Shown: positions 5,470 through 22,518 of the stretch, piece after piece
Layout of the letters: the number at the start of each line of letters is the position of its first letter
How positions within the stretch are numbered: position 1 is the first letter of the stretch
DNA from: Candidatus Tectimicrobiota bacterium
GTDB taxonomy: Bacteria; JACPSX01
Reading direction: 5' to 3'
DNA: 34,719 bases
NCBI GenBank assembly: GCA_016193065.1
Contig: JACPSX010000246.1
Span: 1-34,719, forward strand
Notes under the pieces: generated by a model
Told to the model about the DNA's origin: nothing
Database searches by the model: none
The model's input: the letters and a program-made list of their open reading frames with translations, nothing else
Position numbers and translations under genes: made by a program

Positions 5470-6423
5470 TTACAATTTGGCCCCGCACTGCCCGCAGTAC
5501 GAGAACGATTCGGGAATTCCCTTGGCCCCGCACTTGGAACAGGTATGAACGTATGGGCCCCAGAGGAACTCACTGGACTTGCCCTCGGCGGCCAGACGGC
5601 GCACGCCAAGGTAATCGGGCTGGCGCTTCTCGACGAAGGCCTTCATGCCTTCGTAAGGCTCGATGGCCATGTAGTGCAACGAGAGCCAATCCTTGGCGTG
5701 CCCGATCGTCAGGTTCCAAACGAAATCCTTCCAGAAGTTGACCTGCTGCTTCGTGTAGCGGGTGCACTCGGGGAACTTATTGATGAGCTTCTGGCACAGC
5801 TCGTCCACGGCCTTGTCCAGATCGGCGTAGGGGACCACCTTGTTGACCAGCCCCCATTCCAAGGCCTGCTGGGCCGTAATGGGATCACAGGTAAACAGCA
5901 TTTCCCGGGCCCGGCGATCCCCGATCACGATGGGCAAAAACTGGCTAGCACCCCCGCAGGCCACGCTGCCCACCCGGGTTCCCACCTGGCGGATCGTGGC
6001 GTGGTCGGCGCAAACCGCCAGGTCCGCCGACAGGTTCCATTCGTTACCCCCGCCGGCCACCATGCCGTTGATGCGGGCAATGGTGGGCTTGCCGATGTTG
6101 CGGAACGTGTCGTGGGCCTGCACGAAGGCCCCCATCCACTTCCAATAATCCCGGGGTTTCTTCGTGAAAACGCTCTCGTATTCCTTCACGTCACCGCCTG
6201 TGCAAAACGCCTTGTCTCCGGCCCCCGTGAGCACCACGACGGCGATCCCGTCATCCCAGGAGGCGTCCAGGAAAGCCTGGGTCATCTCGAACAGGGTGAG
6301 CGTGCTGTAGGCGTTGTAGGCATGGGGCCGGTTGATCGTCACCCGGGCCACCCAGTCCTTCTTTTCGTAAATGATCTCCTTGAACTCGAAACTCTCGGCA
6401 GGACGCGGCTCAAAGTAACCCAT
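5470..6423 (-). CDS. Crotonase-family ring-opening beta-oxoacyl-CoA hydrolase (Oah/BadI-like), paralog 2, with C-terminal CxxC...CxxC
   Basis: TINRP..YNAY, AFCTGGDVKEY, GKPTIARINGMVAGGGNE, Q.G.RVGS..GG and terminal CSKC-x11-CGQC; located in a benzoyl-CoA reductase cluster. Confidence 0.75.
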   Translation of the reverse strand: MGYFEPRPAESFEFKEIIYEKKDWVARVTINRPHAYNAYSTLTLFEMTQAFLDASWDDGIAVVVLTGAGDKAFCTGGDVKEYESVFTKKPRDYWKWMGAFVQAHDTFRNIGKPTIARINGMVAGGGNEWNLSADLAVCADHATIRQVGTRVGSVACGGASQFLPIVIGDRRAREMLFTCDPITAQQALEWGLVNKVVPYADLDKAVDELCQKLINKFPECTRYTKQQVNFWKDFVWNLTIGHAKDWLSLHYMAIEPYEGMKAFVEKRQPDYLGVRRLAAEGKSSEFLWGPYVHTCSKCGAKGIPESFSYCGQCGAKL

Positions 6424-6487
6424 TTGCTTCTCCTTCTTCCCTCGCGAAGATTAACCTTCCCCCTCCCTTTCCTCCAATACAACAAAC

Positions 6488-7354
6488 CTATGCCGAACGG
6501 TCCGGAAGCCTGAGAATCCTGCGGGCGTTCCCCTCGAGCACTTTCTCCCGCACCCCCTCTTTGAGCTCCAGTTCCTCAAAACCCTTGAGCCAGCGCTTCG
6601 GGTCAATGTAAGGATAATCGGAGCCGAAGACCATTTTATCCGCAAGCAGCGTGTTCATGTGGGAGATGACCGCCTTGGGAATGTACTTGGGGAGCCAGCC
6701 CGACAGATCGATGTAGAGGTTCGCTTTGTGCAGGCAAATGGCCAGCAGCTCGTTTTCCCAGGGCCAGCCGTTGTGGGCCGCGATGAGCGTAAGCTCGGGA
6801 AAATCAGCGGCCACGTCGTCCAGGTAGATGGGCCGGGCGTATTTCAGTTTGATCCCCATCCCGCCGACCTTCCCCATTCCCAAGCCCGTGAAACCGCAAT
6901 GGAACAGGATGGGAATATCGAGATCGATGCATTTCTCGTACAGCGGGTAGACCATCGGGTCGTTGGGATAGAAATCCTGAATCGGCGGATGAAGCTTGAG
7001 CCCTTTGAGGCCGAGGTCGCCGATGGCCCGCTCCAGCTCCGCCAGCGCGGCTTTTCCTTTCCAAGGATCGACGCTGGCAAAACCAATGAAACGGTCCGGG
7101 AATTCCGCCACCAGCTCGGCAATGTGATCGTTGGGGATCGGGGGAAGCCCCGTTGCGGATTCGGCATCCCAGCCAAAAATCACCCCCAGGGCCACGCCTG
7201 CACTGTCCATGTCCTCCACCACCTCGTCGACATCCTTCACCGGGTGATTCACCTTGAAGAACTCGTCGATGGCTTTCAGATAGTCCCCACCGCCGGCCAT
7301 AAAGAGGTCCGTGGAGGGGTGCATGTGGATGTCAATGGGACGGACGTCTGCCAT
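6488..7354 (-). CDS. Amidohydrolase_2 family metal-dependent hydrolase (resembles CouO-like beta-ketoacyl-CoA hydrolases)
   Basis: IDIHMH, GLKLHP, LFHCG, LDDVAADFP.L..IAAH.GWPW, YIDLSGW.PKY, FGSDYP and NARRIL. Confidence 0.85.
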   Translation of the reverse strand: MADVRPIDIHMHPSTDLFMAGGGDYLKAIDEFFKVNHPVKDVDEVVEDMDSAGVALGVIFGWDAESATGLPPIPNDHIAELVAEFPDRFIGFASVDPWKGKAALAELERAIGDLGLKGLKLHPPIQDFYPNDPMVYPLYEKCIDLDIPILFHCGFTGLGMGKVGGMGIKLKYARPIYLDDVAADFPELTLIAAHNGWPWENELLAICLHKANLYIDLSGWLPKYIPKAVISHMNTLLADKMVFGSDYPYIDPKRWLKGFEELELKEGVREKVLEGNARRILRLPDRSA

Positions 7355-7368
7355 GGGATGTCTCCTCT

Positions 7369-8523
7369 TTACTTCTTACCGGTACCCAGGAGGTCTCGGG
7401 CGATGATGATCCTCTGGATGAAGCTCGTCCCTTCGTAAATTTCAAAGCCCTTGATGTCCCGGTAGTAGCGCTCAACGGGGTAGAGATTCGTGTAGCCGTA
7501 GCTGCCGTGCAGGAAGACCGCCTTGGAAGCGGCCCGGGAAGCGGCCTCGGTGGCATAAAGCTTGGCGGCGGAGGTCTCGGATGTGGTTCTCACACCGGCA
7601 TCTTTGAGAGCAGCCGCCTTGTAGGTAAGCAACCGAGCGGCTTCGGTCTCCACGAACATGTCGGCCATGGCCTGCTGCACCATCTGAAAATCAGCCAGCC
7701 GCTGGCCAAACTGCTGGCGCTTGGTCAGGAACTCAACGCAGGCATCAATGCAGGCCTGAGCTACGCCTACAGCCCCGGCCGCCACTCCGAGCCTGCCGTG
7801 GTCCAGGGCCCCCATGGCCACCTTGAACCCTTCTCCTTCCTTGCCCAAAAGAGCGCTTTTGTGGACCCGGCAGTTCTGCAGACGGATCACCGCATGATCC
7901 GAGGCCCGGTGACCCAATTCCTGACCTTCCATCTTCTCCCGATGAAAGCCCGGAGCGGAGGTTTCCACGATGAAGGCGGTTACCCCCCGGTGCTTGAGGG
8001 AGCGGTCCACACTGGCGAAGACCAGAGCCACATCTGCGATGTTTCCGTTGCTGATCCAGATCTTGGTCCCGTTCAGGAGGTAGTGATCCCCATCCCGGGT
8101 CGCCGTGGATTCCATGCTTCCCACGTCGGAACCCGCGTTGGGCTCCGTGAGAGCGTAGCAGCCGATGATCTCGCCGCGGGCCAGTCTGGGAAGCAACGCC
8201 CGCTTTTGTTCCTCGGTCCCCCAGTCCTTGATGCACATGGAAACGAGCCCCAGATGCACAGCGATGAACCCCCGGGTCGAAGAGCAGGCCCGGCCGATTT
8301 CTTCATAGGCAATGGCCGTGCTCACGTAGTCCCACCCCTGGCCCCCGTATTCCCTGGGCAGTGGCCCTCCCAGGACCCCCAGTTCGGCCAGGCGACGGAT
8401 GATCTCCCGGGGCATGGCGCGGTTTTCATCCCACTGCCGGGCGAAGGGCGCCACTTCATTCTGGGCAAAAGCGCGCATCCTGGCCTGCAATTCCTTTTGA
8501 AGCGGGCTCAGTTGGAAATCCAT
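7369..8523 (-). CDS. Acyl-CoA dehydrogenase
   Basis: YALTEPNAGSD, LNGTKIWISNG, GRLGVAAGAVG, RQQFGQRL..FQ, HGSYGY and IYEGTS.IQR. Confidence 0.93.
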   Translation of the reverse strand: MDFQLSPLQKELQARMRAFAQNEVAPFARQWDENRAMPREIIRRLAELGVLGGPLPREYGGQGWDYVSTAIAYEEIGRACSSTRGFIAVHLGLVSMCIKDWGTEEQKRALLPRLARGEIIGCYALTEPNAGSDVGSMESTATRDGDHYLLNGTKIWISNGNIADVALVFASVDRSLKHRGVTAFIVETSAPGFHREKMEGQELGHRASDHAVIRLQNCRVHKSALLGKEGEGFKVAMGALDHGRLGVAAGAVGVAQACIDACVEFLTKRQQFGQRLADFQMVQQAMADMFVETEAARLLTYKAAALKDAGVRTTSETSAAKLYATEAASRAASKAVFLHGSYGYTNLYPVERYYRDIKGFEIYEGTSFIQRIIIARDLLGTGKK

Positions 8524-8529
8524 GATCTC

Positions 8530-9483
8530 TCACCCCTTCAGCGCACGCAGCCGCTCGCTAAGTTTGGGGAGAACCTTGTAGAGGTCCCCGATGATGCCGT
8601 AATCGGCATATTTGAAAATAGGAGCATCCTTGCTGGAGTTGATGGCCACGATGACCTTGGCCCCTTGAATGGCCACGCTGTGCTGGATCTGCCCTGAGAG
8701 GCCCACGGCGAAATAGATTTCCGGTTTCACCCTCTTTCCCGACAGGCCGATCATGCGATACTCGGGCAGCCACTGCAGATCCGTGGCAACAGGGCGGGTG
8801 CAGCCCACCTCGGCCTGGGCGCTGCGGGCCAGATCCTCGACCAGAGCGAGATCCTCCTTTTTCTTCACGCCGCGCCCGAAGGCGACCACCCGGGAAGCCT
8901 CCTCCAGGTTCACCCCCTCCATGGCCTTAGGACGCCGCTCCACCACCCGGAGCGGGGAAGAAGGAGGAGTAAACTCCAGCAAGGTGGTCTCACCGCTGGC
9001 CGGAAAATCCTCATGGCTGGAGTACTTCCCGGGCAAAACCGCCACCACGAAGATCTCCCCGCCCAGGACCTCGGTGGCGACCGTACTTCCCCCTAGCGCG
9101 TAGCGTTCCGCTTCGATGCGCCCTTCCTGAACGCGCACTGCCAGGGCATCCGTAATGCAACCGGCGGTTAACTTTTGAGCCAGGCGCGGGGCCAGCTCCT
9201 TGCCGCGCTTGCTGGAGCTGATCAGAATCAGCTTGGCACCAGTGCTTCGGGTCATCAAGGCCAGAGCCTCTGCCACAACCTCTACAGCAGTTTCCGGGGC
9301 CAAAGGTTTCTGGAGCCCGAGAACCCGGCGGGCACCGCAACGGAAATACACCTCTGCATTTCCTTCTCCCCAGAGGGAAGCGACCGCTACCTCTCCACCC
9401 AGATCCTCCGCCAGCTCCCGGCCGCGAGTCACGAGCTCGCAGGCCTGGGCCACCTTGTCTGCGTATGCTAGTACCCCCCCCAT
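8530..9483 (-). CDS. fixB: Electron transfer flavoprotein alpha subunit (FixB/EtfA)
   Basis: Start reassigned to ATG 9483 (SD GAGGAGG); the ORF-track extension is MITE sequence. Motifs VVAFGRG, VGCTRPVA, IGLSG..VKPEIY.AVGLSGQIQH and APIF.YADYGIIGDL. Confidence 0.92.
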   Translation of the reverse strand: MGGVLAYADKVAQACELVTRGRELAEDLGGEVAVASLWGEGNAEVYFRCGARRVLGLQKPLAPETAVEVVAEALALMTRSTGAKLILISSSKRGKELAPRLAQKLTAGCITDALAVRVQEGRIEAERYALGGSTVATEVLGGEIFVVAVLPGKYSSHEDFPASGETTLLEFTPPSSPLRVVERRPKAMEGVNLEEASRVVAFGRGVKKKEDLALVEDLARSAQAEVGCTRPVATDLQWLPEYRMIGLSGKRVKPEIYFAVGLSGQIQHSVAIQGAKVIVAINSSKDAPIFKYADYGIIGDLYKVLPKLSERLRALKG

Positions 9484-9497
9484 CCCTACCTCCTCAG

Positions 9498-9635
9498 CAG
9501 GCTGCTGAAAAACCGGGTACCCGTCCCGGGTGTGCGTTGTTGGCTGCGTCGTTCGTCGCTGCGGCGTACCTAACCGCGTACGCCTCGCTCCTCTCTCCTT
9601 GCCGCCTAGCATCCGGAACGTTTTTGAGCAGCCTG
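9498..9635. mobile_element. MITE-like element (138 bp) with 16-bp terminal inverted repeats
   Basis: Left end CAGGCTGCTGAAAAAC (9498-9513); right end GTTTTTGAGCAGCCTG (9620-9635, reverse complement CAGGCTGCTCAAAAAC, 15/16 match). Internal GGCGTAC/GTACGCC hairpin at 9563-9584; no transposase. Confidence 0.8.
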
Positions 9636-9639
9636 TAGA

Positions 9640-10413
9640 TCATCTTCTAAGGACCCCTTCGTTCTCCAGAGCCCGCACCAGTTCTTCAGCAACCTTGTCC
9701 GCATCCCCTTCCAGAAAGATCCCCTTGCGGGAAAGGGGAGGAGCCACGTTGCGGATCTGCTCCACGTAGGTTCCGTTGCGGACCTCCTGGAGCTCCGCGG
9801 GTGTGGTCACCGTTACGGGCTTTTTCGCCGCAGCCAGGATTTTGGTTAAAGAGGGAAGCCGCGGAGAGTTCAGCTCACTGGTTACGGAAATTAAAACTCC
9901 GAAGGGAGCTTCCACCACCTCGTAGCAATCCTCCAGATCCCGGGTGGCGCGGATCTTCCCGTCGACAAGCTCCAGGGCCCGTACGTAGGTGATCTGGGGG
10001 ATTCCCAGACGTTCCGCCAGCCGCGGCCCGACCTGGCCCGAATAGTTGTCGGCCGACCCCTCACCCACCAGGATCAGATCAAAGGTTCCCAACTTTTCAA
10101 CGGCGCGAACCAGCAGGCCGGCCGTTCTCCCCGGATCTCCGCCGGTCCAGCTTTCGTCTACGACCAGCAAAGCCTCATCGGCCCCCATGGCCAGAGATTC
10201 CTTGATCGTCTCTTTGATCTTGGGAGTACCGATCGAGACGGCCGTTACTTTGCCCCCGTGCTTTTCCTTGAGAGTGATCGCGGCCTCCAGAGCGTTCTTG
10301 TCGAACTCGCTCAGACGATAAGGAACTCCGTTAATCACGGGTTCGCCTGTGTCCCCTTTGATCCGGATCTGATTGAGATCCGGAACCTGCTTCACGCAAA
10401 CAACAATGTTCAT
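9640..10413 (-). CDS. fixA: Electron transfer flavoprotein beta subunit (FixA/EtfB)
   Basis: MNIVVCVKQVPD, FDKNALEAA, LAMGADEA, GEGSADNYSGQVGP.LAE.LGIP and N.PRLPSL..ILAA.KKP. Confidence 0.93.
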   Translation of the reverse strand: MNIVVCVKQVPDLNQIRIKGDTGEPVINGVPYRLSEFDKNALEAAITLKEKHGGKVTAVSIGTPKIKETIKESLAMGADEALLVVDESWTGGDPGRTAGLLVRAVEKLGTFDLILVGEGSADNYSGQVGPRLAERLGIPQITYVRALELVDGKIRATRDLEDCYEVVEAPFGVLISVTSELNSPRLPSLTKILAAAKKPVTVTTPAELQEVRNGTYVEQIRNVAPPLSRKGIFLEGDADKVAEELVRALENEGVLRR

Positions 10414-10422: not shown

Positions 10423-10710
10423 CTACCCGAACCGAAAGCTGACTCCGTACCCGCCTTCGGGGTAATCCCAGGTCACCGCTTCGTGGGGACAGCCGACGCG
10501 GCAGGTGCCGCACTCCAGGCAACCATCGCAGTCGTGGACGATGTCCCCTTCCGCATTGAGCTTGAAAAGGTCCGCTGGACAAAAATAAAGACACGGTTTC
10601 TCTCGACACTTTTCCCGGCAGACCCGGGCGTCCACCAGGATATGGCGCTGGCCGCTTAGTTCGAAGACGTCTTTCCCCAAGCGCTCCGCGATGGACAGCT
10701 TCAAGCTCAT
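10423..10710 (-). CDS. fixX: FixX-like ferredoxin
   Basis: C..KPCLYFCPA, GCLECGTCRVGCP and W.YPEGGYGVSFRFG. Confidence 0.9.
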   Translation of the reverse strand: MSLKLSIAERLGKDVFELSGQRHILVDARVCREKCREKPCLYFCPADLFKLNAEGDIVHDCDGCLECGTCRVGCPHEAVTWDYPEGGYGVSFRFG

Positions 10711-11976
10711 AGGGCCCGGTATCCTCGGATGACATCCCCCAGGGCCTGGCCCAGAGGAATACGGGAGAAGAGGGAATTGCGAAAGCCCCGCAAGATCTTC
10801 CCCTTGGAGTTTTCCGTGACGCGATATAGATCCTTAAATGCCCCGGTCAGCGCCCTGGGATAGAGAGTGTAGAGCCGGGGATTGGCAAGGAAAGACGGCA
10901 CCTGCCGGTAGCTCTTGAAGTCTTTGCCGATAAAGCTCTCCTGGACGGACCGGTCGTAAGCCGAAAGGGTCTGGCGGGAAAAATCTCCCTGCTGGTGAGC
11001 CGCCAGGGCAGCCTGGCCCGCCAGAACACCGGAAGCCAGGGCGTAATCCATCCCCCGGACGGTCACCCCCAGATTCAGGCAAAACCCTGCTGCGTCCCCC
11101 ACGGTTAGAAAACCATCAGCGCTTAGAGGCGTTCCCGCGCCCGGACCCGCCTCAGGAATCAAGTGGGCCGAGTACTCGACCACGTTCCCCCCCCGCACGA
11201 GCGGGGCCACCGCAGGGTGCTCTTTAAACTCCTCGATCAGTTCGTGGATCGGCACCCCTGCTGATCCGGCGGCCTGGACTCCCACGACGACCCCCAACGA
11301 GAGGGTCTCCCGGTTTGTGTACAGGAAGCCGCCGCCCGGCATACCCCGGGTCACGGAGCCGGCAAAGAGCTGAGCCGCTCCTTCCCCTCTCTCCAACTGG
11401 AAACGCTCTTCAATGACGCCCCCGGACAGTTCGATGATCTCTTTGGCAGCCACCGCGAAGTGGGCGGGGTCATGGCGAGCTCGCAGCCCCGCCTTCTCAC
11501 TTAACAGAGAATTGACTCCATCGGCTGCGATGACCACGTTGGCTCCTATTTCATCCCCTGCAGCGCGGATCCCGCAGATCCTGCCATTTTCCCGAATGAC
11601 CCCATCGACCCGGATTTTGGGGACCACAAGGCCTCCCCATTCGNNNNNNNNNNNNNNNNNNNNNNNNNNNNNNNCTCTGGGGAGTAGAGGAACAAAACTC
11701 CGGAGCTTGCAGGGAAAGAGCCAGAGAATCGGAGCCGTCCATCAGCGTGAGGCGTTCGTGGGTTACGGACCGCTCAAAAGGAAGGTCGCCGTTCAAGAGG
11801 TCCGGGAGAAGACTGGCAACCGGTTTCAGGTACAGCCGGCCCCCCGAGACATTTTTGGCACCCGGGAAGATACCTCTTTCCAAAGCCAGGGTGTTGAGCC
11901 CTCCCCGCACGCAGACGGAGGCAGCCGCCAGGCCGGAAAGCCCACCGCCCACGACAATGACATCGAACCTCTCCAC
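10707..11976 (-). CDS. fixC: FixC-like FAD-dependent ETF:quinone oxidoreductase, one gene spanning the N gap
   Basis: N-terminal DVIVVGGGLSG...ERG..PGAKNVSGGRLY before the gap; IAADGVNS, GGGFLYTN and VGDAAGF..N.G.TVRGMD after it. The two halves differ in frame only across the estimated-length gap. Confidence 0.88.
11644..11674. other. Assembly/scaffold gap (31 N)
   Basis: Run of n characters in the sequence. Confidence 1.
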
Positions 11977-11989: not shown

Positions 11990-12118
11990 CAGGCTGCGGA
12001 AAAACCGTCCGTTCACCCTTCGACACAAGGGCGAACGGAGGATGGTTTGAAATGATTGATGATTTTCCGTTCATGCTGAGCTTGTCGAAGCATGAAAGTC
12101 ACTTTTTTAACAAATCCC
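11990..12118. mobile_element. Degenerate MITE-like element carrying a REP-type palindromic pair
   Basis: Left end CAGGCTGCGGAAAAAC matches the 9498 TIR at 15/16. Internal CCGTTCACCCTTCGACA..AGGGCGAACGG and CCGTTCATGCTGAGCTTGTCGAAGCATGA motifs; the right end (TTTTTTAACAAATCCC) is degenerate. Confidence 0.65.
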
Positions 12119-14826: not shown

Positions 14827-14853
14827 GGCTTCCCCTCCTCCCCCCAATCCTCC

Positions 14854-15096
14854 TCACCCTGCGCCCGCATCCTGGGGCCTGGTGTATATGATCTTGTACC
14901 GGCCGGGTTCCATCAGGTAGCAATCGAGACACTCATAGCCTTCCTCGGGTTCAAAAGGCTCCAGGCGCACTTCAAATCCCAAGGACTCGTAAAGCTCCAC
15001 AAGTTCGCTCAAACGAGGCTCGCAGACAGTGGTCCGGCGCTCCCAACCTTCCGCTTTCAGGACCGCGCTCTTCCCTCTTCGTTCCTGCTCCGCCAC
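14854..15096 (-). CDS. Small hypothetical protein (80 aa) with a CxxC motif
   Basis: GTG start at 15096, packed tightly between neighbours; GWERRT...EPRLSELVELYESLGFEVRLEP...CLDC...IYTRP. Confidence 0.7.
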   Translation of the reverse strand: MAEQERRGKSAVLKAEGWERRTTVCEPRLSELVELYESLGFEVRLEPFEPEEGYECLDCYLMEPGRYKIIYTRPQDAGAG

Positions 15097-15106
15097 AGCT
15101 CCCCCG

Positions 15107-18037: not shown

Positions 18038-18047
18038 AGCGAGCCTC

Positions 18048-18329
18048 CTACCAGGAATGAGTAATGGCGCCCGGAGTGCACGCGGCCATGCAAGGGAGTA
18101 CCCCACGCCCCGTAGTCGGCTTGCAGGCAGCACAGAGGTACTTCAAAGTATTGCGGACGTCCCGACGGACCGCCGACACGTTGTCGTCGTAATCGTCCGT
18201 GATCATCTCGTAGATATGCTCGGGGCATCCATCAATGCAGCCGTGATGAGGGCAGCTCGTGCACTTATCCGTGTCGATCGTTACGAAGTACTCCCCGGAG
18301 CCGTCTTTGTAACCGTAGTTCGCAAGCAT
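18048..18329 (-). CDS. bzdM: Benzoyl-CoA reductase-associated ferredoxin (BzdM-like)
   Basis: MLANYGYKDGSGEYFVTIDTDKC..C....C...CP and LKYLCAACKP....PC...C.PGAITHSW; directly after bzdQ. Confidence 0.85.
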   Translation of the reverse strand: MLANYGYKDGSGEYFVTIDTDKCTSCPHHGCIDGCPEHIYEMITDDYDDNVSAVRRDVRNTLKYLCAACKPTTGRGVLPCMAACTPGAITHSW

Positions 18330-18346
18330 TCTCAACCCCCAAGGTT

Positions 18347-19225
18347 TTAGGCTACTTTGCCAGCCGCTTTTTCTTTCTGGAGCAAGGCTTGTCCAAACAG
18401 CGCCGCCCCCAGGGCTCCGGCAAGCTGGCTGTCGTACTTGCTCTGGACGGCGCTTATGCCGATGACCTGTTCCAGACGCTTGACGACTCCGGCGTTCTTC
18501 GCAATGCCTCCTGTGATGAAGAATTCCTTCTCCACCCCGATGCGCTCCAGGAGCTCCGAAACTCGCTTTGCCATAGCTAGGCAGTAAGCGGCCAGCACCT
18601 TGCTCTTGGTCCAGCCATCTTTGAGAAGTCCCATGGCCTCGGACTTGGCAAACACCACGCAGGTACTGCTGACCGGCTCAGGCTCCTCGGGAACGTTAAA
18701 CGAAAGCTCCCCGACTTGCTCAATCGGGACGGCCAACAGGTCCGCAATGACCTCCATACCCCGTCCCGTGCCGGCTGCGCATTTATCGTTCATGAGGAAG
18801 TTGGTCACTTTCCCCTTCTCGTCGCAATGGATCGCCTTGCAATCCTGCCCTCCCATATCCAGGATCGTGCGCACGCTGTTGCCGGCCATAAAGTTCGCCC
18901 CCCGGGCATGACAGGCAATTTCCGTAATTGCCTTGTTGGCGAAGGGAACGTTCACGCGCCCGTAGCCAGTGCCGACGACGTATTGGATATTCTCCTGCTT
19001 CATCCCCGTGTCCTGCAAGGCCCATTCGAGCGCCTTGCGGGCGCTGTCCGGGCTGTTGGAGCCGGTGCGCATGCTGGAGTAAGCGTAGAGCTCCCCATCG
19101 GTCGCGATGACCGCCTGCGAGCTCACGGAACCGACGTCAATGCCCGCCGTGATCATCTTGGCAGTTTTCCAATCCTTGTCTGGATCTTTCCAGTTGTATT
19201 CTTTCCATCTCCAGAATTCAGCCAC
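18347..19225 (-). CDS. bzdQ: Benzoyl-CoA reductase, bzd-type, subunit Q (ASKHA ATPase activase)
   Basis: EFWRW.E..W N-terminus, ITAGIDVGSVSSQA, GTGYGRVNVPF, EIACHARGA, DMGGQDCK, MNDKCAAGTGR and STCVVFAKSE. Confidence 0.93.
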   Translation of the reverse strand: MAEFWRWKEYNWKDPDKDWKTAKMITAGIDVGSVSSQAVIATDGELYAYSSMRTGSNSPDSARKALEWALQDTGMKQENIQYVVGTGYGRVNVPFANKAITEIACHARGANFMAGNSVRTILDMGGQDCKAIHCDEKGKVTNFLMNDKCAAGTGRGMEVIADLLAVPIEQVGELSFNVPEEPEPVSSTCVVFAKSEAMGLLKDGWTKSKVLAAYCLAMAKRVSELLERIGVEKEFFITGGIAKNAGVVKRLEQVIGISAVQSKYDSQLAGALGAALFGQALLQKEKAAGKVA

Positions 19226-19242: not shown

Positions 19243-20019
19243 CTAGTTTCCAGCCGCGCCGGCAACGACGGCAGCCCCCAGAGCTCCCACGTATTCAGGA
19301 TCCTGCGGGACCACGACATTCTCGATCCCCAGCGTCCGCTTGATGGAATCCAAGAACCCTATGTTGTAGGCCACTCCGCCCACCAAAATCACATCCTGCT
19401 CCAAGCCGACCCTGCGCACCATGGCGGAAATTCGGCTGGCGATCGCGTCATGCACTGCCCGGGCAATGTCCTCCTTGGAGGTGTTTGAGTGAATCAGGGA
19501 CACCACTTCGGATTCGGCGAAGACGGTGCATTGGGCGTTCATGGGAATTGACTTGTTTGATTTCAGGGAAATATCCCCGAACTGGGCCAGAGTCACTTCC
19601 AGCGCCCGCGCCATGGACTCCGTGAAAGCTCCCGCCCCGGCGGCGCATTTCTCGTTGACCGCGAAGTCAACGACCTTGCCGTCGGCGTTGGTTTTGATTC
19701 CGCGCCCCTCTTCGGCACCTACATCGATGACCGTGCGGGCAGACGGATGGAGGAAGACAGCTCCCTGTGCATCCGCGCTCACTTCCGTGACCACGGTCTG
19801 GGCAAACGCCACGGCTTTGCGGCCCGCTCCGGTCGCCCCCACCTTGCCCACGGCGCTACGCTCGATCCCGGCCTTGGCGAGCGCTTCTTTATAAGCCTCC
19901 TCGACAGACTGCTCCGTCTCAAAACCGGCCAGCACACTGGTTTTGGCCAAGATCTTGCCACCGTCAAGAAGCACCACCTTGATTGTTTTGGCTCCCACAT
20001 CGATTCCGGCTGTGATCAT
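19243..20019 (-). CDS. bzdP: Benzoyl-CoA reductase, bzd-type, subunit P (ASKHA ATPase activase)
   Basis: MITAGIDVGA, ATGAGR, DVGAEEGR, NEKCAAGAG.F and MNAQCTVFAESEVVSL. Confidence 0.92.
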   Translation of the reverse strand: MITAGIDVGAKTIKVVLLDGGKILAKTSVLAGFETEQSVEEAYKEALAKAGIERSAVGKVGATGAGRKAVAFAQTVVTEVSADAQGAVFLHPSARTVIDVGAEEGRGIKTNADGKVVDFAVNEKCAAGAGAFTESMARALEVTLAQFGDISLKSNKSIPMNAQCTVFAESEVVSLIHSNTSKEDIARAVHDAIASRISAMVRRVGLEQDVILVGGVAYNIGFLDSIKRTLGIENVVVPQDPEYVGALGAAVVAGAAGN

Positions 20020-20031
20020 GACGTTCCTCCC

Positions 20032-21342
20032 TTAATTCTCGAGCTTGTTAAAGCCCAGGCTTTCCATAAAGGAGTCGATGCGGCTTAGAGTTCGTGGGTA
20101 ATCCATTTCCTTCTCGTCGCCCATGTTCCCTTCATAGGTCATCACAGGCACCCCCGCTTTGACGAGCCCAAGCCGGTTTTCCATAATTCCCTTGCTCAAG
20201 CCCTCGCAACCTCGATTCAGGTGCAGGATCACTCCGTTCAGCTTAAACTCCTTGACCATCCTGAGCATTATGTCGGTCTTGATTTGGGGGTCGTAAAAGT
20301 GTTGCCACTCCGGCTTGGAGAGGTTCCAGTCGGCGTAGATCCGCAAGGCTTCTTCCCGGGTGCGAATCTTGATCCCGAGCTGCTCCGGTGTAGGCCGGGG
20401 GCCCCAGGAGCCGTCCGGCTGATCCGCGAAGACCCCTTCCAGTGCGAACGTGTACAGCGAACCCACGGAGACGGCCCCGTATTTCTCCATATAGCGGTAC
20501 ATGGAGAGATAGCTCCACGGCGGCTGAGTGTCCGTGATCAGGCGGCAGCGCTCGGTAGACACCGCGGCAATGCCGCGCGCAATGCGGTCCTTCACCTCAT
20601 CCCTCAGCTCTTCGTAGAAGTCCCCGAACTCTTTGGAATGTTTCGACAGGGTGGCCAGAACGTAGAGAGCATACATCGTTTTCTCTTCCAGAGGAGCCGG
20701 GACTGCCTTGTTGAGCGTGCAAACCTCGGCCCACAGAGAGGTCGTGCGGCACTCATTGTTGACGGCGGCGATAAACTTCTCGTCATCAAATTTGCGTCCT
20801 GTCACCTTCTCCAACCAGGGGATGGACTCCTGCATCTGGTTCACGACATAGGCGATCCTGCCTTCATCCACGTCCTTGTACAGCCCCACGCTCACGTCGA
20901 TGGTGAAATAGGGGATCTGCTTGTATTCGGCCACATGCTGGTACCACTTGTGGTGGCTGCAGCATATCTGGGTCTGAAATGCAAAGTCGGGCTTGGGGAA
21001 CTCACCGCCGAAGGCGTATTTGTTGACATACATGGAGCCCCAGTAGGTTCTCATGTAGGAGCATAGATCCCGCGACCAACCTTTGGCATCGGCCGCGCTC
21101 TGACATTCCGCATTGAGCTTTGGATCGAAGGCCACGGAAGCAGCGTAGGGCTCGCTGGTCAGGGTGTAGACGTCGTCGCCGAGCCCGGCGGGAATCGCGT
21201 CCATTGCCCAGGCCCCGCCGCTCCAGCGGATGCCGCCGCGCTGTTTACACTCCGCATAGTCCTTGTAATACTTCAGGCGCAGCTCCTTGGCCTTATTCCA
21301 GCACTTCAAAGGTTCGGTGGGATATTTCGTTAACGTCGCCAT
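20032..21342 (-). CDS. bzdO: Benzoyl-CoA reductase, bzd-type, subunit O
   Basis: [54 protein letters not shown] and YEGNMGDE (2-hydroxyacyl-CoA dehydratase family). An alternative start at 21360 is possible. Confidence 0.93.
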
Positions 21343-21387
21343 GATTTTCTCCCCATTCAAAAATTCGTTGCCGTTTCCATTCCACCC

Positions 21388-22518
21388 CTAGAAGAGATCA
21401 TCCGTTCTCAGCGTCTCCAGGAAAGCTTCAACCCGGATGCGGAATGGCCCCAGAGGGTTCGTGGAGTCGAATTCCAGCCCCAGTGTCGGGATCCCGTTGT
21501 CCTCCAGATACTTCTTGAGGACCGGGTTGTCCCCCTCATGGGGATCGCAGAATTTTTCCTGCATGATGATAGCACCCTGAGCTTTATAGTCCTTGGCCAA
21601 TTGAAGCACGTGGGGAAATCGCTGGCGTTCCGGGTAATCTTTGGTCGGACAAGGAGGCCGCTCTACATACCGATCGCTGATCGTTTGCAGACGATCCGGC
21701 TGGATCCGCGCCTCGTTCCAAAAGTAGCGGGTGCCGGCACACTGCTCATCAATTACTACGGTGGCTCCCACGGATTCCACCATCTTGAAGAACTCCACGT
21801 CGTCGTTCTCGCTCCCCACGGCCATCAGGCGGATCCCCGGGTCCCGGTCGACCGTGCGGTCGGCCACTTCCTCGCTGGCTTCTTCCAGGGCTTTGTTGTG
21901 CTCTTCGTAATCGACAAACTGGGCAGTGGTGGCAATGTAGAGAGCTTCCGTCCCCGTCAATTTCGGCGGGTCGGTTTTCCGGAACTCGTAGATCTTGTGG
22001 AGAAGCCGGCGGTTCTTGTTGGTAAGCTCAATCCCCCTGTCCAGATCTGCGTCCGTGATCTTTTTGCCGGCGTACTCTTCAAGGGCGGCCTTGAATTTCG
22101 CCACCTCCCCCACGTAGTACGACTTCGCCGAGGGGCTCTGGACCATGTTGGGCATCGGCAAGTAGTAAGTGAACTCGGTCGGGATGTGGGCCCTCCAGCT
22201 ATCAAAGGTCTGGCGGTAGTGGATGCAGGAGTGGGCCAGCACGATCCCGTCCAGGTAGTTGAATCTTCCTTTCAGCCCCTGAGCCAGAGAGTCGCGGCAG
22301 AAGGGGCAAAACATTCCGAAGATGTGGGGCTCCGTCACATCCTGGGGCTCATGGCTCCCCAATATGCGGGAGTGGAGCATTCCCGCCGCGGTTAAAATCT
22401 CATCGGGGACGTAGGTGCAAAACGTCCCGATGACCTTGCCCCCGGTCCTCTTTTTCCATTCTCGCGCGTACTCGTGACGATTGTGGTACCAGTGCTCGAA
22501 TTTCTCTAGGGCGGCCAT
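21388..22518 (-). CDS. bzdN: Benzoyl-CoA reductase, bzd-type, subunit N
   Basis: WY.NRHEYAREWK, FCTYVP.EI, RILGSHEPQDVTEPHIFGMFCPFCRD, RPPCPTKD, KFCDPH and GPFRIRVEAFLETL. Confidence 0.93.
   Translation of the reverse strand: MAALEKFEHWYHNRHEYAREWKKRTGGKVIGTFCTYVPDEILTAAGMLHSRILGSHEPQDVTEPHIFGMFCPFCRDSLAQGLKGRFNYLDGIVLAHSCIHYRQTFDSWRAHIPTEFTYYLPMPNMVQSPSAKSYYVGEVAKFKAALEEYAGKKITDADLDRGIELTNKNRRLLHKIYEFRKTDPPKLTGTEALYIATTAQFVDYEEHNKALEEASEEVADRTVDRDPGIRLMAVGSENDDVEFFKMVESVGATVVIDEQCAGTRYFWNEARIQPDRLQTISDRYVERPPCPTKDYPERQRFPHVLQLAKDYKAQGAIIMQEKFCDPHEGDNPVLKKYLEDNGIPTLGLEFDSTNPLGPFRIRVEAFLETLRTDDLF

What the first reader, a model, noticed from the sequence alone, without database searches (positions are those of the whole stretch)
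5470..22518. Non-canonical bzd-type benzoyl-CoA reductase operon: two ring hydrolases, two ACADs and FixCXAB, but no dienoyl-CoA hydratase or hydroxy-enoyl-CoA dehydrogenase
Seen: about 17 kb of co-oriented, tightly packed genes, bzdNOPQM-V-GNAT-small ORF-hemerythrin-oah1-acd-fixCXAB-acd-amidohydrolase-oah2. Known: in Azoarcus/Aromatoleum-type bzd clusters the reductase product is processed by a hydratase (BzdW/Dch), a dehydrogenase (BzdX/Had) and a single hydrolase (BzdY/Oah). No Dch-like crotonase or alcohol dehydrogenase is recognisable here. Inference: this may be a variant dearomatisation route, for example for a hydroxylated or otherwise substituted aroyl-CoA whose reduced product is already an oxo-compound, or a route via cyclohexene/cyclohexane-carboxyl-CoA using the two ACADs.
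Basis: partly seen in the sequence, partly recalled or inferred. Interest (0 to 1): 0.75.

Follow-up and report, generated by a model that had tools for sequence, protein, structure and literature searches.

The report
Benzoyl-CoA reductase operon, unusual downstream genes
An uncultured groundwater bacterium carries a standard ATP-driven benzene-ring reductase in one operon with two copies of an unnamed ring-opening-type enzyme and an electron-transfer module, while the usual hydratase and dehydrogenase genes are missing from the operon and probably replaced by unrelated or distant genes elsewhere.

Summary

**What the genes are**
- BzdN, BzdO and BzdQ pass NCBIfam equivalog cut-offs, so the reductase is canonical. 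A substituted-substrate reductase is not supported.
- The two "oah" genes are not canonical Oah, BadI or MenB.
- They belong to a large, generically annotated crotonase family with a C-terminal zinc ribbon. It groups with canonical Oah in a quick tree.
- In 20 of 21 well-flanked metagenome loci this family sits beside class I reductase-like genes, usually with a Dch-like crotonase and a Had-like or SDR dehydrogenase.

**Dch and Had**
- No Dch or Had over cut-off exists in this MAG (86% complete) or its sister genome (91%).
- The Dch cut-off is uninformative: 0 of 5 other BzdO-positive genomes reach it.
- The sister genome has a Dch-like crotonase of the reductase-linked type.
- Both genomes have an SDR orthologous to the SDRs that follow Oah-like genes elsewhere.

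**Reading**
- Most likely the usual hydrate-oxidise-hydrolyse chemistry runs with non-orthologous, dispersed enzymes.
- acad2, ETF and FixCX probably serve lower-pathway acyl-CoA oxidation.
- An ACAD-based cyclohexene route is not excluded.

Verdict: a new variant of a known pathway cluster, of moderate interest.

The parts
21388..22521 (-). bzdN, catalytic subunit of the Bzd-type class I benzoyl-CoA reductase (ATG at 22518)
   Evidence: TIGR03190 554 bits against cut-off 453.8; Pfam HGD-D
20032..21360 (-). bzdO, catalytic subunit
   Evidence: TIGR03191 699.9 bits against cut-off 448.6. 65-73% identical to 119 listed BzdO relatives of many phyla.
19243..20019 (-). bzdP, ATPase subunit
   Evidence: Pfam BcrAD_BadFG 175 bits. 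TIGR00241 223.5 against cut-off 125.4. No equivalog cut-off reached.
18347..19225 (-). bzdQ, ATPase subunit
   Evidence: TIGR03192 498 bits against cut-off 380.2
18048..18335 (-). Small 2x[4Fe-4S]-type ferredoxin in the BzdM position
   Evidence: Weak Pfam Fer4_10 hit (20.6 bits, below its cut-off of 25.5). 99% identical in L019 and 54% in L097, at the same position after bzdQ.
15602..18133 (-). BzdV-like multidomain oxidoreductase: 2Fe-2S, 4Fe-4S, GltD-like NAD(P)H/FAD domain and DUF7508. Start codon uncertain.
   Evidence: Pfam Fer2_4, Fer4_20, Pyr_redox_2, DUF7508. A 45%-identical 844-aa ORF holds the same position in L097.
15107..15574 (-). GNAT acetyltransferase
   Evidence: Pfam Acetyltransf_1. 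GNAT plus the small ORF lie upstream of the Oah-like gene in L061, L064, L067, L084 and L105.
14854..15159 (-). Conserved small ORF of no known family (about 80 aa; start uncertain)
   Evidence: No Pfam or NCBIfam hit. 85% identical in L019 and 36-56% in six metagenome loci.
14329..14847 (-). Hemerythrin-domain protein
   Evidence: Pfam Hemerythrin 55.6 bits
13353..14312 (-). crot1, an Oah-related crotonase with a C-terminal CxxC...CxxC zinc ribbon; the divergent paralog
   Evidence: Oah 180, BadI 177 and MenB 174 bits, all below cut-offs. Alignment A1, tree. Differs at 11 of 135 near-invariant family columns.
12119..13321 (-). acad1, a divergent acyl-CoA dehydrogenase of unknown substrate
   Evidence: Pfam ACAD N, M and C domains. 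Best NCBIfam hit AcrC 236 against cut-off 640. Best PDB hit 5lnx, 194 bits. In the genome collection only L019 (91%) and L020 (44%) were close.
12008..12039 (-). Terminator-like hairpin inside a short dispersed repeat in the acad1-fixC spacer
   Evidence: 13-bp stem with a T-rich tail (the total count of such sites was not above shuffles). Spacer modules recur on 15 other contigs. Contig depth rises from 13-30 in most flanking bins to 124-1814 there.
10707..11976 (-). fixC, ETF:quinone-oxidoreductase-like flavoprotein, interrupted by the N run 11644-11674 (an assembly gap, not a frameshift)
   Evidence: NF007542 FixC matched by both pieces (63 and 296 bits). Intact 429 aa in L019. Bridged by contigs of X1, X2 and X4.
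10423..10710 (-). fixX, ferredoxin-like protein
   Evidence: Pfam Fer4_ETF_QO 28.5 bits against cut-off 24
9640..10413 (-). etfB / fixA
   Evidence: Pfam ETF 139.7 bits. NF002888 FixA 155 against cut-off 219.
8530..9612 (-). etfA / fixB (true start probably near 9486)
   Evidence: Pfam ETF_alpha plus ETF. NF002889 185 against cut-off 549. L020's copy is 318 aa.
7369..8523 (-). acad2, a Bcd/glutaryl-CoA-dehydrogenase-like ACAD
   Evidence: AcrC 392 bits, non-decarboxylating GDH 371 against cut-off 470. PDB 5ol2_C 346 bits and 3mpi 316 bits. Best GDH score of the 3 ACADs found in the assembly. A 63%-identical ACAD lies beside the Oah-like gene in L066.
6488..7354 (-). Amidohydro_2 metal-dependent hydrolase/hydratase/decarboxylase-type protein of unknown function
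   Evidence: Pfam PF04909 181 bits. Best PDB hit is the uncharacterised protein 3irs, 122 bits.
5470..6423 (-). crot2, an Oah-related zinc-ribbon crotonase close to the family consensus
   Evidence: Oah 190, BadI 189 and MenB 194-197 bits, all below cut-offs. 64% identical to crot1. 57-74% identical to most of the metagenome-locus family members and 68-76% to the 119 listed relatives other than its own cluster.
1099..5084 (-). Downstream on the same strand: molybdopterin oxidoreductase (2484-5084, no evident Tat signal), 4Fe-4S protein (2051-2503) and NrfD-type membrane subunit (1099-2091). Possibly quinone-linked; whether it belongs to the operon is uncertain.
   Evidence: Pfam. PhsA 237 against cut-off 694. 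385-bp gap after crot2.
3..965 (-). Family III CoA-transferase, cut by the contig end
   Evidence: Pfam CoA_transf_3 399 bits. Best NCBIfam hit succinate-glutarate CoA-transferase, 364 against cut-off 750.
23732..27301 (-). Upstream on the same strand: two-subunit 2-oxoacid:ferredoxin oxidoreductase, a candidate ferredoxin-reducing system for the reductase. A YwiC-like gene (22878-23678) lies between it and bzdN.
   Evidence: Pfam POR_N, PFOR_II, POR, and Fer4 plus TPP_enzyme_C. PFOR model 359 and 199 bits, below cut-off.

Best explanation
This is a benzoyl-CoA degradation operon of a deep-branching, uncultured groundwater bacterium.

**Shown by family membership**
- BzdNOPQ with its ferredoxin is a canonical ATP-dependent Bzd-type benzoyl-CoA reductase.

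**Inferred from position**
- The BzdV-like oxidoreductase and the upstream 2-oxoacid:ferredoxin oxidoreductase re-reduce the ferredoxin.

**Inferred from a quick tree and gene neighbourhoods elsewhere**
- The dienoyl-CoA product is processed by the usual sequence of hydration, alcohol oxidation and hydrolytic ring opening. The enzymes are not orthologs of Dch, Had and Oah, and their genes are scattered.
- Ring opening falls to the zinc-ribbon Oah-related crotonases crot2 and/or crot1.
- The dehydrogenase is an SDR encoded on another contig (G000:C239, beside a thiolase).
- The hydratase is a Dch-like crotonase seen so far only in the sister genome, or else one of the two Oah-like paralogs.

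**Inferred, less firmly**
- acad2 is the glutaryl-CoA (or other short-chain) dehydrogenase of the lower pathway.
- It passes electrons through EtfAB to FixCX and on to menaquinone.
- The roles of acad1 and the Amidohydro_2 protein are unknown.
For: **The reductase is canonical**
- BzdN, BzdO and BzdQ exceed their equivalog cut-offs.
- BzdO is 65-73% identical to 119 listed relatives across phyla.
- It scores 700 bits, like the BzdO of 5 of the 7 other positive genomes (689-736) among 401 sampled.

**The crotonase family**
- All 5 aligned members carry the C-terminal Cys4 motif.
- A canonical Oah (P0173, 630 bits on TIGR03200) lacks that motif and scores only 215 bits on the family profile.
- A split with 100% SH-aLRT support places the family with canonical Oah, apart from MenB, BadI-like and ordinary crotonases (quick tree).

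**Neighbourhoods of the family in metagenome loci**. L050, the window's own lineage, was dropped.

| Feature | 79 loci | 21 loci with at least 5 kb on both sides |
|---|---|---|
| Reductase-like genes | 53 | 20 |
| Dch-like crotonase within 3 kb | 27 | 11 |
| Had-like Zn-ADH within 3 kb | 18 | 9 |
| SDR within 3 kb | 29 | 6 |
| Both Had-like and SDR | 5 | 1 |

- L067 reads Oah-like / Had-like (251 bits) / Dch-like (184 bits) / BcrC-like / BcrB-like.
- L097 reads Oah-like / SDR / crotonase, next to a Bzd-type cluster that is 57-74% identical to the window's.

**The SDR in trans**
- 24 of 29 Oah-adjacent SDRs have their best match in this genome at the C239 SDR, at 46-71% identity. Its next paralog reaches 40-50%.
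- It is 96% conserved in the sister genome, where an ORF of thiolase length lies in the same relative position.

**The Dch-like gene**
- The G001:C7 crotonase scores 165 bits on the Dch model. That is the same range as the Dch-like genes of other BzdO-positive genomes (141-166).
- It is 50% identical to L097's cluster crotonase.

**The ACADs**
- Only 3 ACADs are found in the assembly.
- acad2 has the best glutaryl-CoA-dehydrogenase score: 371, against 201 and 192.
- A 63% homolog of acad2 lies in L066's Bcr-like cluster.

**Precedent**
- The mbd cluster of Azoarcus sp. CIB holds upper- and lower-pathway genes together; its legend names an mbdO-orf9 operon (PMC4424350, figure legend passage).
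Against: - No ortholog of the Dch-like crotonase is in this MAG's assembly; the best match is 29% identical. Synteny with the sister contig breaks there rather than simply running off a contig end, so the gene may truly be absent.
- In the sister genome the Dch-like gene lies beside UbiD-family genes, not beside the reductase.
- The SDR sits next to a thiolase. It could equally be the 3-hydroxypimeloyl-CoA dehydrogenase of the lower pathway, which would leave the Had step unfilled. 5 of 79 loci carry both Had-like and SDR genes.
- The Thauera-type route needs only one ACAD, so acad1 is unexplained.
- FixABCX-type ETFs are known (recalled) for electron bifurcation and for feeding an ACAD that works as a reductase (CaiA in E. 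coli). This direction of electron flow is the opposite of the one proposed here.
- No member of the zinc-ribbon family was found characterised. All 119 listed names other than the window's own are generic.
- The tree is a quick search with long branches near the Oah clade.
Confidence: 0.5

Rival explanations
1. ACAD-based route of the Rhodopseudomonas or Syntrophus type.
- One ACAD (acad1 is the candidate) receives electrons through the Fix-type ETF. It reduces the dienoyl-CoA to cyclohex-1-ene-1-carbonyl-CoA.
- This could run as a bifurcating NADH-dependent system that also regenerates reduced ferredoxin for the reductase.
- The monoene is then hydrated, oxidised by the SDR and cleaved by an Oah-like enzyme acting like BadI, giving pimeloyl-CoA.
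- The second ACAD oxidises pimeloyl-CoA or glutaryl-CoA.
For: - Two ACADs flank fixCXAB inside the reductase operon.
- The Thauera-type route needs only one ACAD.
- No Zn-ADH Had-like gene scores above about 100 bits in either genome. By contrast, 3 of 5 other BzdO-positive genomes have one at 233-449 bits.
- An SDR is the dehydrogenase type of the R. palustris route (BadH; recalled).
- The Oah-like proteins score as well on BadI as on Oah: 177 and 189 against 180 and 190.
- Recalled: E. coli fixABCX supports the reductive ACAD CaiA, and ACADs interconvert cyclohexene- and cyclohexadiene-carboxyl-CoA in Syntrophus and Geobacter. PMC12016498 (passage) names those Syntrophus enzymes.
Against: - Neither ACAD approaches the cut-offs for cyclohexane-1-carbonyl-CoA dehydrogenase (181 and 274 against 650) or the R. 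palustris enzyme (218 and 232 against 575).
- The closest acad1 relative outside the lineage (L020, 44%) lies with a glycyl-radical enzyme and CoA-transferases. That context suggests oxidative, BbsG-like use.
- The presence of FixCX points to quinone coupling.
- The tree places the crotonases with Oah, not with BadI-like proteins.
- The sequences carry no direct evidence for the direction of electron flow.
Confidence: 0.2
2. Paralog takeover. The extra, divergent Oah-like copy (crot1) has become the dienoyl-CoA hydratase, replacing Dch. crot2 remains the ring hydrolase, so no separate Dch gene is needed in this genome.
For: - This is the only lineage with two family copies in one locus: 0 of 79 other loci have two.
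- It also lacks a cis Dch-like gene, and the MAG has no ortholog of the sister genome's Dch-like gene.
- crot1 departs from 11 of 135 near-invariant family columns, against 4 for crot2, and sits on a long stem branch of 0.76.
- Canonical Oah already hydrates a ring double bond before it cleaves the ring (established knowledge, recalled).
Against: - The sister genome keeps both paralogs as well as a Dch-like gene.
- At 4 of the 11 deviating positions crot1 carries the residue of canonical Oah. That looks like retained ancestral states rather than a new function.
- crot1 and crot2 fall in different subclades, at support of 85-91. This fits acquisition of a second hydrolase rather than recent neofunctionalisation.
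Confidence: 0.12
3. Assembly artefact. Canonical or near-canonical dch and had genes exist but lie in the unassembled 14% of the MAG. On that view the operon is an ordinary bzd cluster plus lower-pathway genes.
For: - The MAG has 294 contigs with a median length of 7.3 kb and is 86% complete.
- The sister genome contains a Dch-like gene in a region that is not collinear with this assembly.
Against: - The sister genome (91% complete) also has no Had-like gene above 103 bits and no Dch over cut-off.
- Two independent assemblies (L019 plus L044, and L050) show the same operon content without dch or had.
- In canonical clusters these genes usually adjoin the reductase or Oah genes.
Confidence: 0.1
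4. The reductase acts on a substituted or bicyclic aroyl-CoA (for example methyl- or hydroxy-benzoyl-CoA, or tetrahydronaphthoyl-CoA as in the thn operon), and the unusual downstream genes handle its reduced product.
For: - The gene set partly resembles the thn operon of N47, which has a reductase, ferredoxin, oxidoreductase, crotonases, the amidohydrolase ThnN, the ACADs ThnO and ThnT, and the CoA-transferase ThnP (PMC12016498, Table 1 passages).
- The sister genome carries UbiD-type carboxylase or decarboxylase modules.
Against: - BzdN, BzdO and BzdQ are far above the benzoyl-CoA reductase equivalog cut-offs and highly conserved.
- According to the authors' tree, the thn crotonases lie outside the MenB/BadI cluster (PMC13689101, Discussion). 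The window's crotonases score best on the MenB, BadI and Oah models.
- The window has no MaoC dehydratase, thiolase, hydroxyacyl-CoA dehydrogenase or AtuA-like lyase genes.
- No labelled Mbd or Thn subunit sequences were available, so a direct phylogeny was not made.
Confidence: 0.05

Closest known systems
bzd cluster of Azoarcus / Aromatoleum (bzdNOPQM...V, then bzdW/X/Y = Dch/Had/Oah)
   Same: BzdN, O, P, Q, then a ferredoxin and a BzdV-like oxidoreductase, in the same order. N, O and Q are over the equivalog cut-offs. A 2-oxoacid:ferredoxin oxidoreductase lies nearby, as korAB does in the Chloroflexi bzd clusters described in PMC5736913 (passages).
   Different: - No BzdW, BzdX or BzdY orthologs.
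- Two zinc-ribbon Oah-related crotonases take their place.
- Two ACADs, FixCXAB, an Amidohydro_2 protein, a GNAT, a small ORF and a hemerythrin lie in the operon.
- The full bzd gene order is recalled, not taken from a call.
[quoted passage not shown]
   Same: Same side of the best-supported split in the crotonase tree. The C-terminal helical extension matches Oah profile positions 264-349. Genomic linkage to class I reductase genes.
   Different: - Scores of 180 and 190 bits against a cut-off of 464.
- A canonical Oah scores only 215 bits on the family profile and lacks the Cys4 zinc ribbon.
- No biochemical data for the family were found.
Rhodopseudomonas palustris bad pathway (BadK hydratase, BadH SDR, BadI hydrolase, pimeloyl-CoA oxidation)
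   Same: An SDR-type dehydrogenase is the linked candidate. The BadI score (177 and 189) equals the Oah score. An ACAD demand beyond glutaryl-CoA dehydrogenase would fit a pimeloyl-CoA product.
   Different: - The reductase is Bzd-type, not BadDEFG-type.
- The crotonases do not group with BadI-like proteins.
- The BadH model was not among the top 25 families of L097's SDR.
- The pathway outline comes from PMC5736913 and PMC13689101 passages and from recall.
mbd cluster of Azoarcus sp. CIB (3-methylbenzoyl-CoA)
   Same: A Bzd-like reductase cluster in which lower-pathway genes lie alongside upper-pathway genes (PMC4424350, figure legend).
   Different: The mbd cluster keeps hydratase, dehydrogenase and hydrolase genes (recalled). 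The window's reductase scores as the main BzdO group does. No Mbd sequences were compared.
thn operon of culture N47 / strain NaphS2 (tetrahydronaphthoyl-CoA reductase and ring-cleavage genes)
   Same: Reductase, ferredoxin, oxidoreductase, several crotonases, an amidohydrolase-superfamily protein (ThnN), two ACADs and a CoA-transferase in one operon (PMC12016498, Table 1 passages).
   Different: No MaoC, thiolase, hydroxyacyl-CoA dehydrogenase or AtuA-like lyase genes. The crotonases are of a different subfamily. The reductase is a canonical BzdNOPQ.
E. coli caiA with fixABCX, and FixABCX of diazotrophs (recalled)
   Same: An ACAD genetically coupled to an ETF (FixAB) plus an ETF:quinone-oxidoreductase-like FixCX.
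   Different: The Fix subfamily scores are below cut-off: FixA 155 against 219, FixB 185 against 549. The context is aromatic degradation. The direction of electron flow is unknown.

Membership tests
Bzd-type class I benzoyl-CoA reductase | Subunits N, O and Q reach the equivalog cut-offs (TIGR03190, TIGR03191, TIGR03192) | tested here: met
   554 against 453.8, 699.9 against 448.6, and 498 against 380.2
Bzd-type class I benzoyl-CoA reductase | Four adjacent genes, two HGD-D type and two BcrAD/BadFG ATPase type, followed by a ferredoxin | tested here: met
   Pfam HGD-D twice and BcrAD_BadFG twice, then a 95-aa Fer4-type ORF
Bzd-type class I benzoyl-CoA reductase | ATP-dependent two-electron reduction of benzoyl-CoA to the 1,5-dienoyl-CoA | not testable with these tools
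   Requires an enzyme assay
[quoted passage not shown] | A protein over the cut-off of 292.5 bits in the window or genome | tested here: not met
   Best is 70 bits in G000 and 165 bits in G001. However, 0 of 5 other BzdO-positive genomes reach the cut-off either.
[quoted passage not shown] | A Zn-ADH over the cut-off of 338.65 bits | tested here: not met
   Best is 99 bits in G000 and 103 bits in G001. The comparators score 449, 261 and 233.
Oah / BamA (TIGR03200) | Score over the cut-off of 464.45 bits | tested here: not met
   crot1 scores 180 and crot2 190. Nothing else in the genome is over the cut-off.
Oah / BamA (TIGR03200) | Phylogenetic grouping with characterised Oah rather than with MenB or BadI | tested here: inconclusive
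   A split with 100% SH-aLRT support puts the family and a canonical Oah (defined by model score, not by assay) on one side. The tree is a quick search and has long branches.
BadI (TIGR03210) and MenB (TIGR01929 / NF005637) | Score over the cut-off (467.6; 342.7 and 380) | tested here: not met
   BadI 177 and 189. MenB 174-197.
FixABCX-type ETF system | Adjacent fixC, fixX, etfB and etfA genes with FixX carrying the ETF-QO 4Fe-4S domain | tested here: met
   Order C-X-B-A. PF05187 28.5 bits against cut-off 24. ETF and ETF_alpha domains.
FixABCX-type ETF system | Subunits reach the NCBIfam Fix subfamily cut-offs | tested here: not met
   FixA 155 against 219. FixB 185 against 549. FixC pieces 63 and 296 against 610, with the gene interrupted by N.
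FixABCX-type ETF system | Bifurcating-type EtfAB (second FAD and NADH site) | not tested
   The motifs are only recalled, so no reliable test was run.
thn operon (tetrahydronaphthoyl-CoA pathway) | MaoC pair, thiolases, hydroxyacyl-CoA dehydrogenase and AtuA-like lyases alongside the reductase | tested here: not met
   None of these families occurs in the window. The thn gene list comes from PMC12016498 passages.
Non-decarboxylating glutaryl-CoA dehydrogenase (NF045552) | acad2 over the cut-off of 470 bits | tested here: not met
   371 bits. This is still the best of the three ACADs in the assembly.

The most novel reading that the evidence does not exclude
The operon encodes a self-feeding dearomatisation module. 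On this reading acad1, with the Fix-type EtfAB/FixCX, reduces the dienoyl-CoA product of BzdNOPQ to cyclohex-1-ene-1-carbonyl-CoA by flavin-based electron bifurcation. That regenerates the low-potential ferredoxin which the ATP-dependent reductase consumes. The two zinc-ribbon crotonases then divide the hydratase and ring-hydrolase roles, so neither Dch nor Had is needed. This would also name a candidate for the long-unidentified dienoyl-CoA-reducing step of the Rhodopseudomonas-type pathway.
Probability: 0.1. Interest if true: 0.8.

Novelty: new variant of a known kind. Interest (0 to 1): 0.45.

Why it matters
**For environmental surveys**
- The benzoyl-CoA pathway is the hub of anaerobic aromatic degradation.
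- Surveys score it by canonical marker genes: bcr/bzd, dch, had and oah/bamA.
- Here a canonical reductase is paired with a ring-hydrolase-type family that equivalog models do not name and that public records annotate only generically.
- That family is very common: 4706 clusters at E <= 1e-60 among the 8000 candidates scored, in Bacteria and Archaea.
- It lies beside class I reductase-like genes in 20 of 21 well-flanked loci.
- If it is the functional Oah, marker-based surveys may undercount anaerobic aromatic degraders. The 'missing' downstream steps in many MAGs may then be an annotation gap.

**For this lineage**
- Its particular arrangement of two copies, two ACADs and FixCXAB offers a testable case of how electrons leave, or re-enter, the pathway in a menaquinone-type anaerobe.

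Tried and rejected
- **thn-operon membership.** Considered because of the amidohydrolase, ACADs and CoA-transferase. Rejected on gene content and crotonase type.
- **fixC frameshift or pseudogene.** Rejected. It is an N run, bridged by contigs of 3 of 4 runs and intact in L019.
- **The 106-aa ORF as fixX.** Rejected for the 95-aa frame.
- **Relatives of acad1 in species genomes.** The scan gave only 13 loci, 2 of them informative.
- **Earlier-findings look-up.** It returned one unrelated note.
- **Protein Atlas look-ups for acad1 and the amidohydrolase.** Only generic family names came back.
- **Names of molybdoenzyme homologs.** All generic, so the idea that it resembles phenylacetyl-CoA:acceptor oxidoreductase rests on recall alone.
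- **Promoter and terminator scan.** Counts did not exceed shuffles: 5 promoter-like sites against a mean of 4.9, and 20 terminator-like sites against 20.0.
- **Sequencing runs.** No RNA holder was listed, so nothing can be said on expression.
- **Literature searches**. None of the listed titles, abstract starts or passages read describes a bzd operon with this gene set or the zinc-ribbon crotonase family. Most subscription-journal papers are not in the library, and supplements were not read.
- **Not done:** a labelled phylogeny of BzdNOPQ against Mbd, Thn and archaeal enzymes (no labelled sequences could be obtained); structure prediction; complex prediction.
- **Tree quality.** The careful tree search did not finish within the time limit, so the quick tree is what is reported.
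- **ORF picking.** Greedy picking on high-GC metagenome loci (L053, L066) chose some antisense ORFs. Those loci were used only through BLAST matches.

Full report
**1. What is in the sequence**

The window is one whole contig (C149) of a MAG of 2.9 Mb in 294 contigs, 86% complete. From 22521 down to 5470 the minus strand carries 19 consecutive ORFs.

- bzdN, bzdO, bzdP, bzdQ
- a small ferredoxin
- an 843-aa BzdV-like iron-sulfur flavoprotein
- a GNAT, a small ORF with no family, and a hemerythrin
- crotonase 1 and ACAD 1
- fixC, fixX, etfB, etfA
- ACAD 2, an Amidohydro_2 protein and crotonase 2

Two details needed correction.

- fixX is the 95-aa frame 10423-10710 (Fer4_ETF_QO, 28.5 bits against cut-off 24), not the overlapping 106-aa ORF.
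- fixC looks split only because of 31 N at 11644-11674. It is an intact 429-aa ORF in the sister contig L019. Contigs of three of the four public runs laid on it bridge the gap with 20 extra letters, which restores 429 codons.

The same gene order, at 80-96% protein identity, is seen in independent assemblies: L019 and L044 of the sister genome G001, and the metagenome contig L050.

**2. The reductase is canonical**

- BzdN (554 against 453.8), BzdO (699.9 against 448.6) and BzdQ (498 against 380.2) exceed the equivalog cut-offs.
- BzdO is 65-73% identical to the 119 listed relatives beyond one 96% near-copy. They include proteins named for Zixibacteria, Calditrichaeota, Anaerolineae, Planctomycetota, Thermoplasmatota, a Betaproteobacterium (68%) and a Rhodocyclaceae MAG (69%).
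- In a sample of 401 genomes, 8 hold a BzdO over the cut-off. Six of them, this genome included, score 689-736 bits, and a truncated one scores 604.
- The four paralogs in genome G096 score 391-449. The window's protein therefore sits with the main group, not with divergent paralogs.

Nothing points to a reductase specialised for a substituted ring.

**3. The two crotonases**

They are 64% identical to each other. They score about equally, and far below cut-off, on the three relevant models:

| Model | crot1 / crot2 score (bits) | Cut-off |
|---|---|---|
| Oah | 180 / 190 | 464 |
| BadI | 177 / 189 | 468 |
| MenB | 174-197 | 343 and 380 |

- Both end in a CxxC...CxxC zinc-ribbon motif. The two relatives from other phyla in the alignment (G017, G034) share it.
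- A profile search over 1.84 billion representatives shows one dominant 50% cluster (562 bits), followed by a steep fall.
- A canonical Oah (P0173, 630 bits on TIGR03200) scores only 215 bits on the family profile and has no zinc ribbon.
- In a quick maximum-likelihood tree of 115 rows, a split with 100% SH-aLRT support puts this family together with canonical Oah. MenB, BadI-like and ordinary crotonases fall on the other side.
- crot1 and crot2 fall in different subclades (support 85-91), and crot1 sits on a long stem branch.
- crot1 departs from 11 of 135 near-invariant family columns and crot2 from 4. At 4 of those 11, crot1 has the residue of canonical Oah.
- The family is very large: 4706 clusters at E <= 1e-60 among the 8000 candidates scored.
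- The 119 best relatives other than the window's own cluster are 68-76% identical and carry only generic names. Named taxa include Acidobacteriia, Armatimonadota, NC10, Dormibacteraeota, Anaerolineae, Asgard archaea, Thermoplasmata and the cultured Heliophilum fasciatum.

**4. What this family sits next to**

A metagenome scan found 532 relatives, of which 80 loci were kept. L050, the window's own lineage, was dropped, leaving 79.

| Feature | 79 loci | 21 loci with at least 5 kb on both sides |
|---|---|---|
| Reductase-like genes | 53 | 20 |
| ...of Bzd type | 1 (L097) | 1 (L097) |
| Dch-like crotonase within 3 kb | 27 | 11 |
| Had-like Zn-ADH within 3 kb | 18 | 9 |
| SDR within 3 kb | 29 | 6 |
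| Both Had-like and SDR | 5 | 1 |
| None of the three | 30 | 6 |
| Two family copies | 0 | 0 |

- Almost all the reductase-like genes are distant, Bcr-like sets that are 22-44% identical to the window's subunits.
- L067 reads Oah-like, Had-like (251 against 339), Dch-like (184 against 292.5), BcrC-like (280 against 421) and BcrB-like (237 against 487).
- L097 reads Oah-like, SDR and crotonase, next to a Bzd-type cluster 57-74% identical to the window's.
- No other locus has the acad1/fix module.

This family is therefore the crotonase that travels with class I reductase-type clusters. It holds the position that Oah occupies in canonical clusters. That is association, not a demonstrated activity.

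**5. Are Dch and Had really missing?**

- No Dch, Had or Oah is over cut-off in this MAG; the best scores are 70, 99 and 147 bits.
- No Dch or Had is over cut-off in the sister genome G001, which is 91% complete; the best scores are 165 and 103 bits.
- The Dch cut-off is not informative outside the model's seed taxa. Of five other BzdO-positive genomes, 0 reach it.
- One of those five has its 166-bit Dch-like gene 2.5 kb from a canonical Oah.
- G001's 165-bit crotonase lies in that same range. It is 50% identical to L097's cluster crotonase and 40% to L067's Dch-like protein.
- It has no ortholog in this MAG (best 29%), and synteny breaks there rather than simply ending at a contig edge. Its absence from this species stays open.
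- Had-like Zn-ADHs of 233-449 bits occur in 3 of the 5 comparators but in neither genome of this lineage. That absence is more credible.
- Of 29 SDRs lying within 3 kb of an Oah-like gene, 24 have their best match in this genome at one SDR on contig C239, at 46-71% identity. Its next paralog reaches 40-50%. The other 5 match an SDR on C63, which lies two genes from a Zn-ADH.
- The C239 SDR sits beside a thiolase, downstream of a sigma-54 two-component pair, and is 96% conserved in G001.
- Had-like and SDR genes are largely alternatives in the loci: 13 have only Had-like, 24 only SDR, and 5 both. This favours the SDR as a Had substitute.
- The SDR could instead be the 3-hydroxypimeloyl-CoA dehydrogenase of the next step.

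**6. The ACAD-Fix module**

- The assembly holds only three ACADs.
- acad2 is closest to the bifurcating butyryl-CoA dehydrogenase 5ol2_C (346 bits) and to the non-decarboxylating glutaryl-CoA dehydrogenase 3mpi (316 bits).
- acad2 has the best glutaryl-CoA-dehydrogenase model score of the three: 371, against 201 and 192, with a cut-off of 470.
- A 63%-identical ACAD lies next to the Oah-like gene of L066.
- acad1 is divergent. Its best PDB hit is 194 bits. Its only relative outside the lineage in the species collection is 44% identical.
- That relative lies in a Dehalococcoidales contig, where it again precedes fixC-fixX-etfB-etfA. A glycyl-radical enzyme, three family III CoA-transferases, a crotonase, an AFOR and BzdN/O-like genes lie beside it. 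Such a context suggests oxidative use.
- Neither ACAD approaches the cyclohexane-carboxyl-CoA dehydrogenase models.
- I read the module as acyl-CoA oxidation feeding ETF, FixCX and quinone. That direction is inferred, and one ACAD remains without a role in a Thauera-type route.
- A hairpin at 12008-12039 lies in the acad1-fixC spacer and may divide the cluster into two transcription units. It is part of a short repeat found on 15 other contigs, and contig depth spikes there.

**7. Comparison with known systems**

- The front half is a textbook bzd cluster.
- The mbd cluster gives a precedent for lower-pathway genes lying in the same cluster as a Bzd-like reductase (PMC4424350, legend passage).
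- The thn operon shares several gene types but fails on content and on crotonase subfamily (PMC12016498 passages and PMC13689101 Discussion).
- In three literature searches, none of the listed titles, abstract starts or passages I read describes this arrangement or the zinc-ribbon family. The library lacks most subscription journals, and I read no supplements.

**8. Verdict**

| Reading | Probability |
|---|---|
| Standard chemistry with non-orthologous, dispersed enzymes | about 0.5 |
| ACAD-based cyclohexene route | 0.2 |
| Paralog takeover of the Dch step | 0.12 |
| Assembly gap hiding canonical genes | 0.1 |
| Substituted substrate | 0.05 |

The more general result is the unnamed Oah-related zinc-ribbon family that accompanies class I reductase-type clusters across Bacteria and Archaea.

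Noticed in passing
window 1099-5084 (-); paralogs on G000 contigs C20, C292, C84, C255: A molybdopterin oxidoreductase (866 aa, N-terminus starting directly at the Fe4S4 Cys motif with no evident Tat signal) lies with a 4Fe-4S protein and an NrfD-type membrane subunit. They follow crot2 after a 385-bp gap.
- The genome holds four paralogs, at 50, 48, 40 and 34% identity.
- All listed homologs carry generic names.
- The subunit pattern recalls phenylacetyl-CoA:acceptor oxidoreductase (PadBCD). That resemblance is from recall only and was not tested.
   Followed up: partly
G001:C7 (L048) 2-4534 and 8472-9932; G000:C123 479-2497: UbiD-family (de)carboxylases, two family III CoA-transferases and a UbiX-type flavoprotein lie together with ABC-transporter genes. 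The layout resembles anaerobic phthalate-to-benzoyl-CoA modules (recalled). It would give the organism a source of benzoyl-CoA.
   Followed up: partly
window 11977-12118, 22747-22857, 9496-9635: Intergenic spacers of the operon carry short dispersed repeats.
- acad1-fixC spacer: modules recur on 15 other contigs.
- Upstream of bzdN: on 13 other contigs.
- etfB-etfA spacer: on 2 other contigs.
- Public contigs break at the acad1-fixC spacer, and summed contig depth rises from 13-30 in most flanking bins to 124-1814 there.
- One module recurs just downstream of the C239 SDR-thiolase pair.
   Followed up: partly
L020 (Dehalococcoidales MAG contig), 1-21042: A glycyl-radical enzyme with its activase, three family III CoA-transferases, an acad1-like ACAD followed by fixC-fixX-etfB-etfA, a crotonase, a 4Fe-4S protein with an AFOR, and BzdN/O-like genes (41% and 34% identical). 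It looks like an aryl- or alkyl-succinate-type pathway joined to a divergent reductase.
   Followed up: partly
window 14854-15574 (-); L061, L064, L067, L084, L105, L122: The GNAT and the family-less small ORF upstream of the Oah-like gene recur in the same order in five distant Bcr-like clusters, at 37-45% and 36-48% identity. The small ORF also occurs in L122, at 56%. Function unknown.
   Followed up: no
G000:C241 13350-16323 (L132 5285-7647): The genome holds a second pair of HGD-D family genes followed by a BzdQ-like ATPase (39% identical). This is either another reductase or a dehydratase of the 2-hydroxyacyl-CoA dehydratase superfamily.
   Followed up: no
whole genome G000 / G001: In the held collection of one genome per species, only one genome shares the genus. 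All 399 other sampled 'relatives' are related only at domain level. The sister record is titled simply 'bacterium'. The lineage seems to have no classified close kin. The four strong DNA holders are groundwater metagenomes of one study.
   Followed up: no
window 27581-34719: The far flank holds:
- a DAO-family FAD oxidoreductase and a TatD-type hydrolase;
- a radical SAM/SPASM protein over the TIGR04053 cut-off (482 against 395);
- two COX1-like membrane proteins;
- a DUF1858/DUF2249 protein.

A 45%-identical radical SAM gene also lies in the Bcr-like locus L053.
   Followed up: no
They may be a set of specialised aryl-CoA reductases.
   Followed up: no
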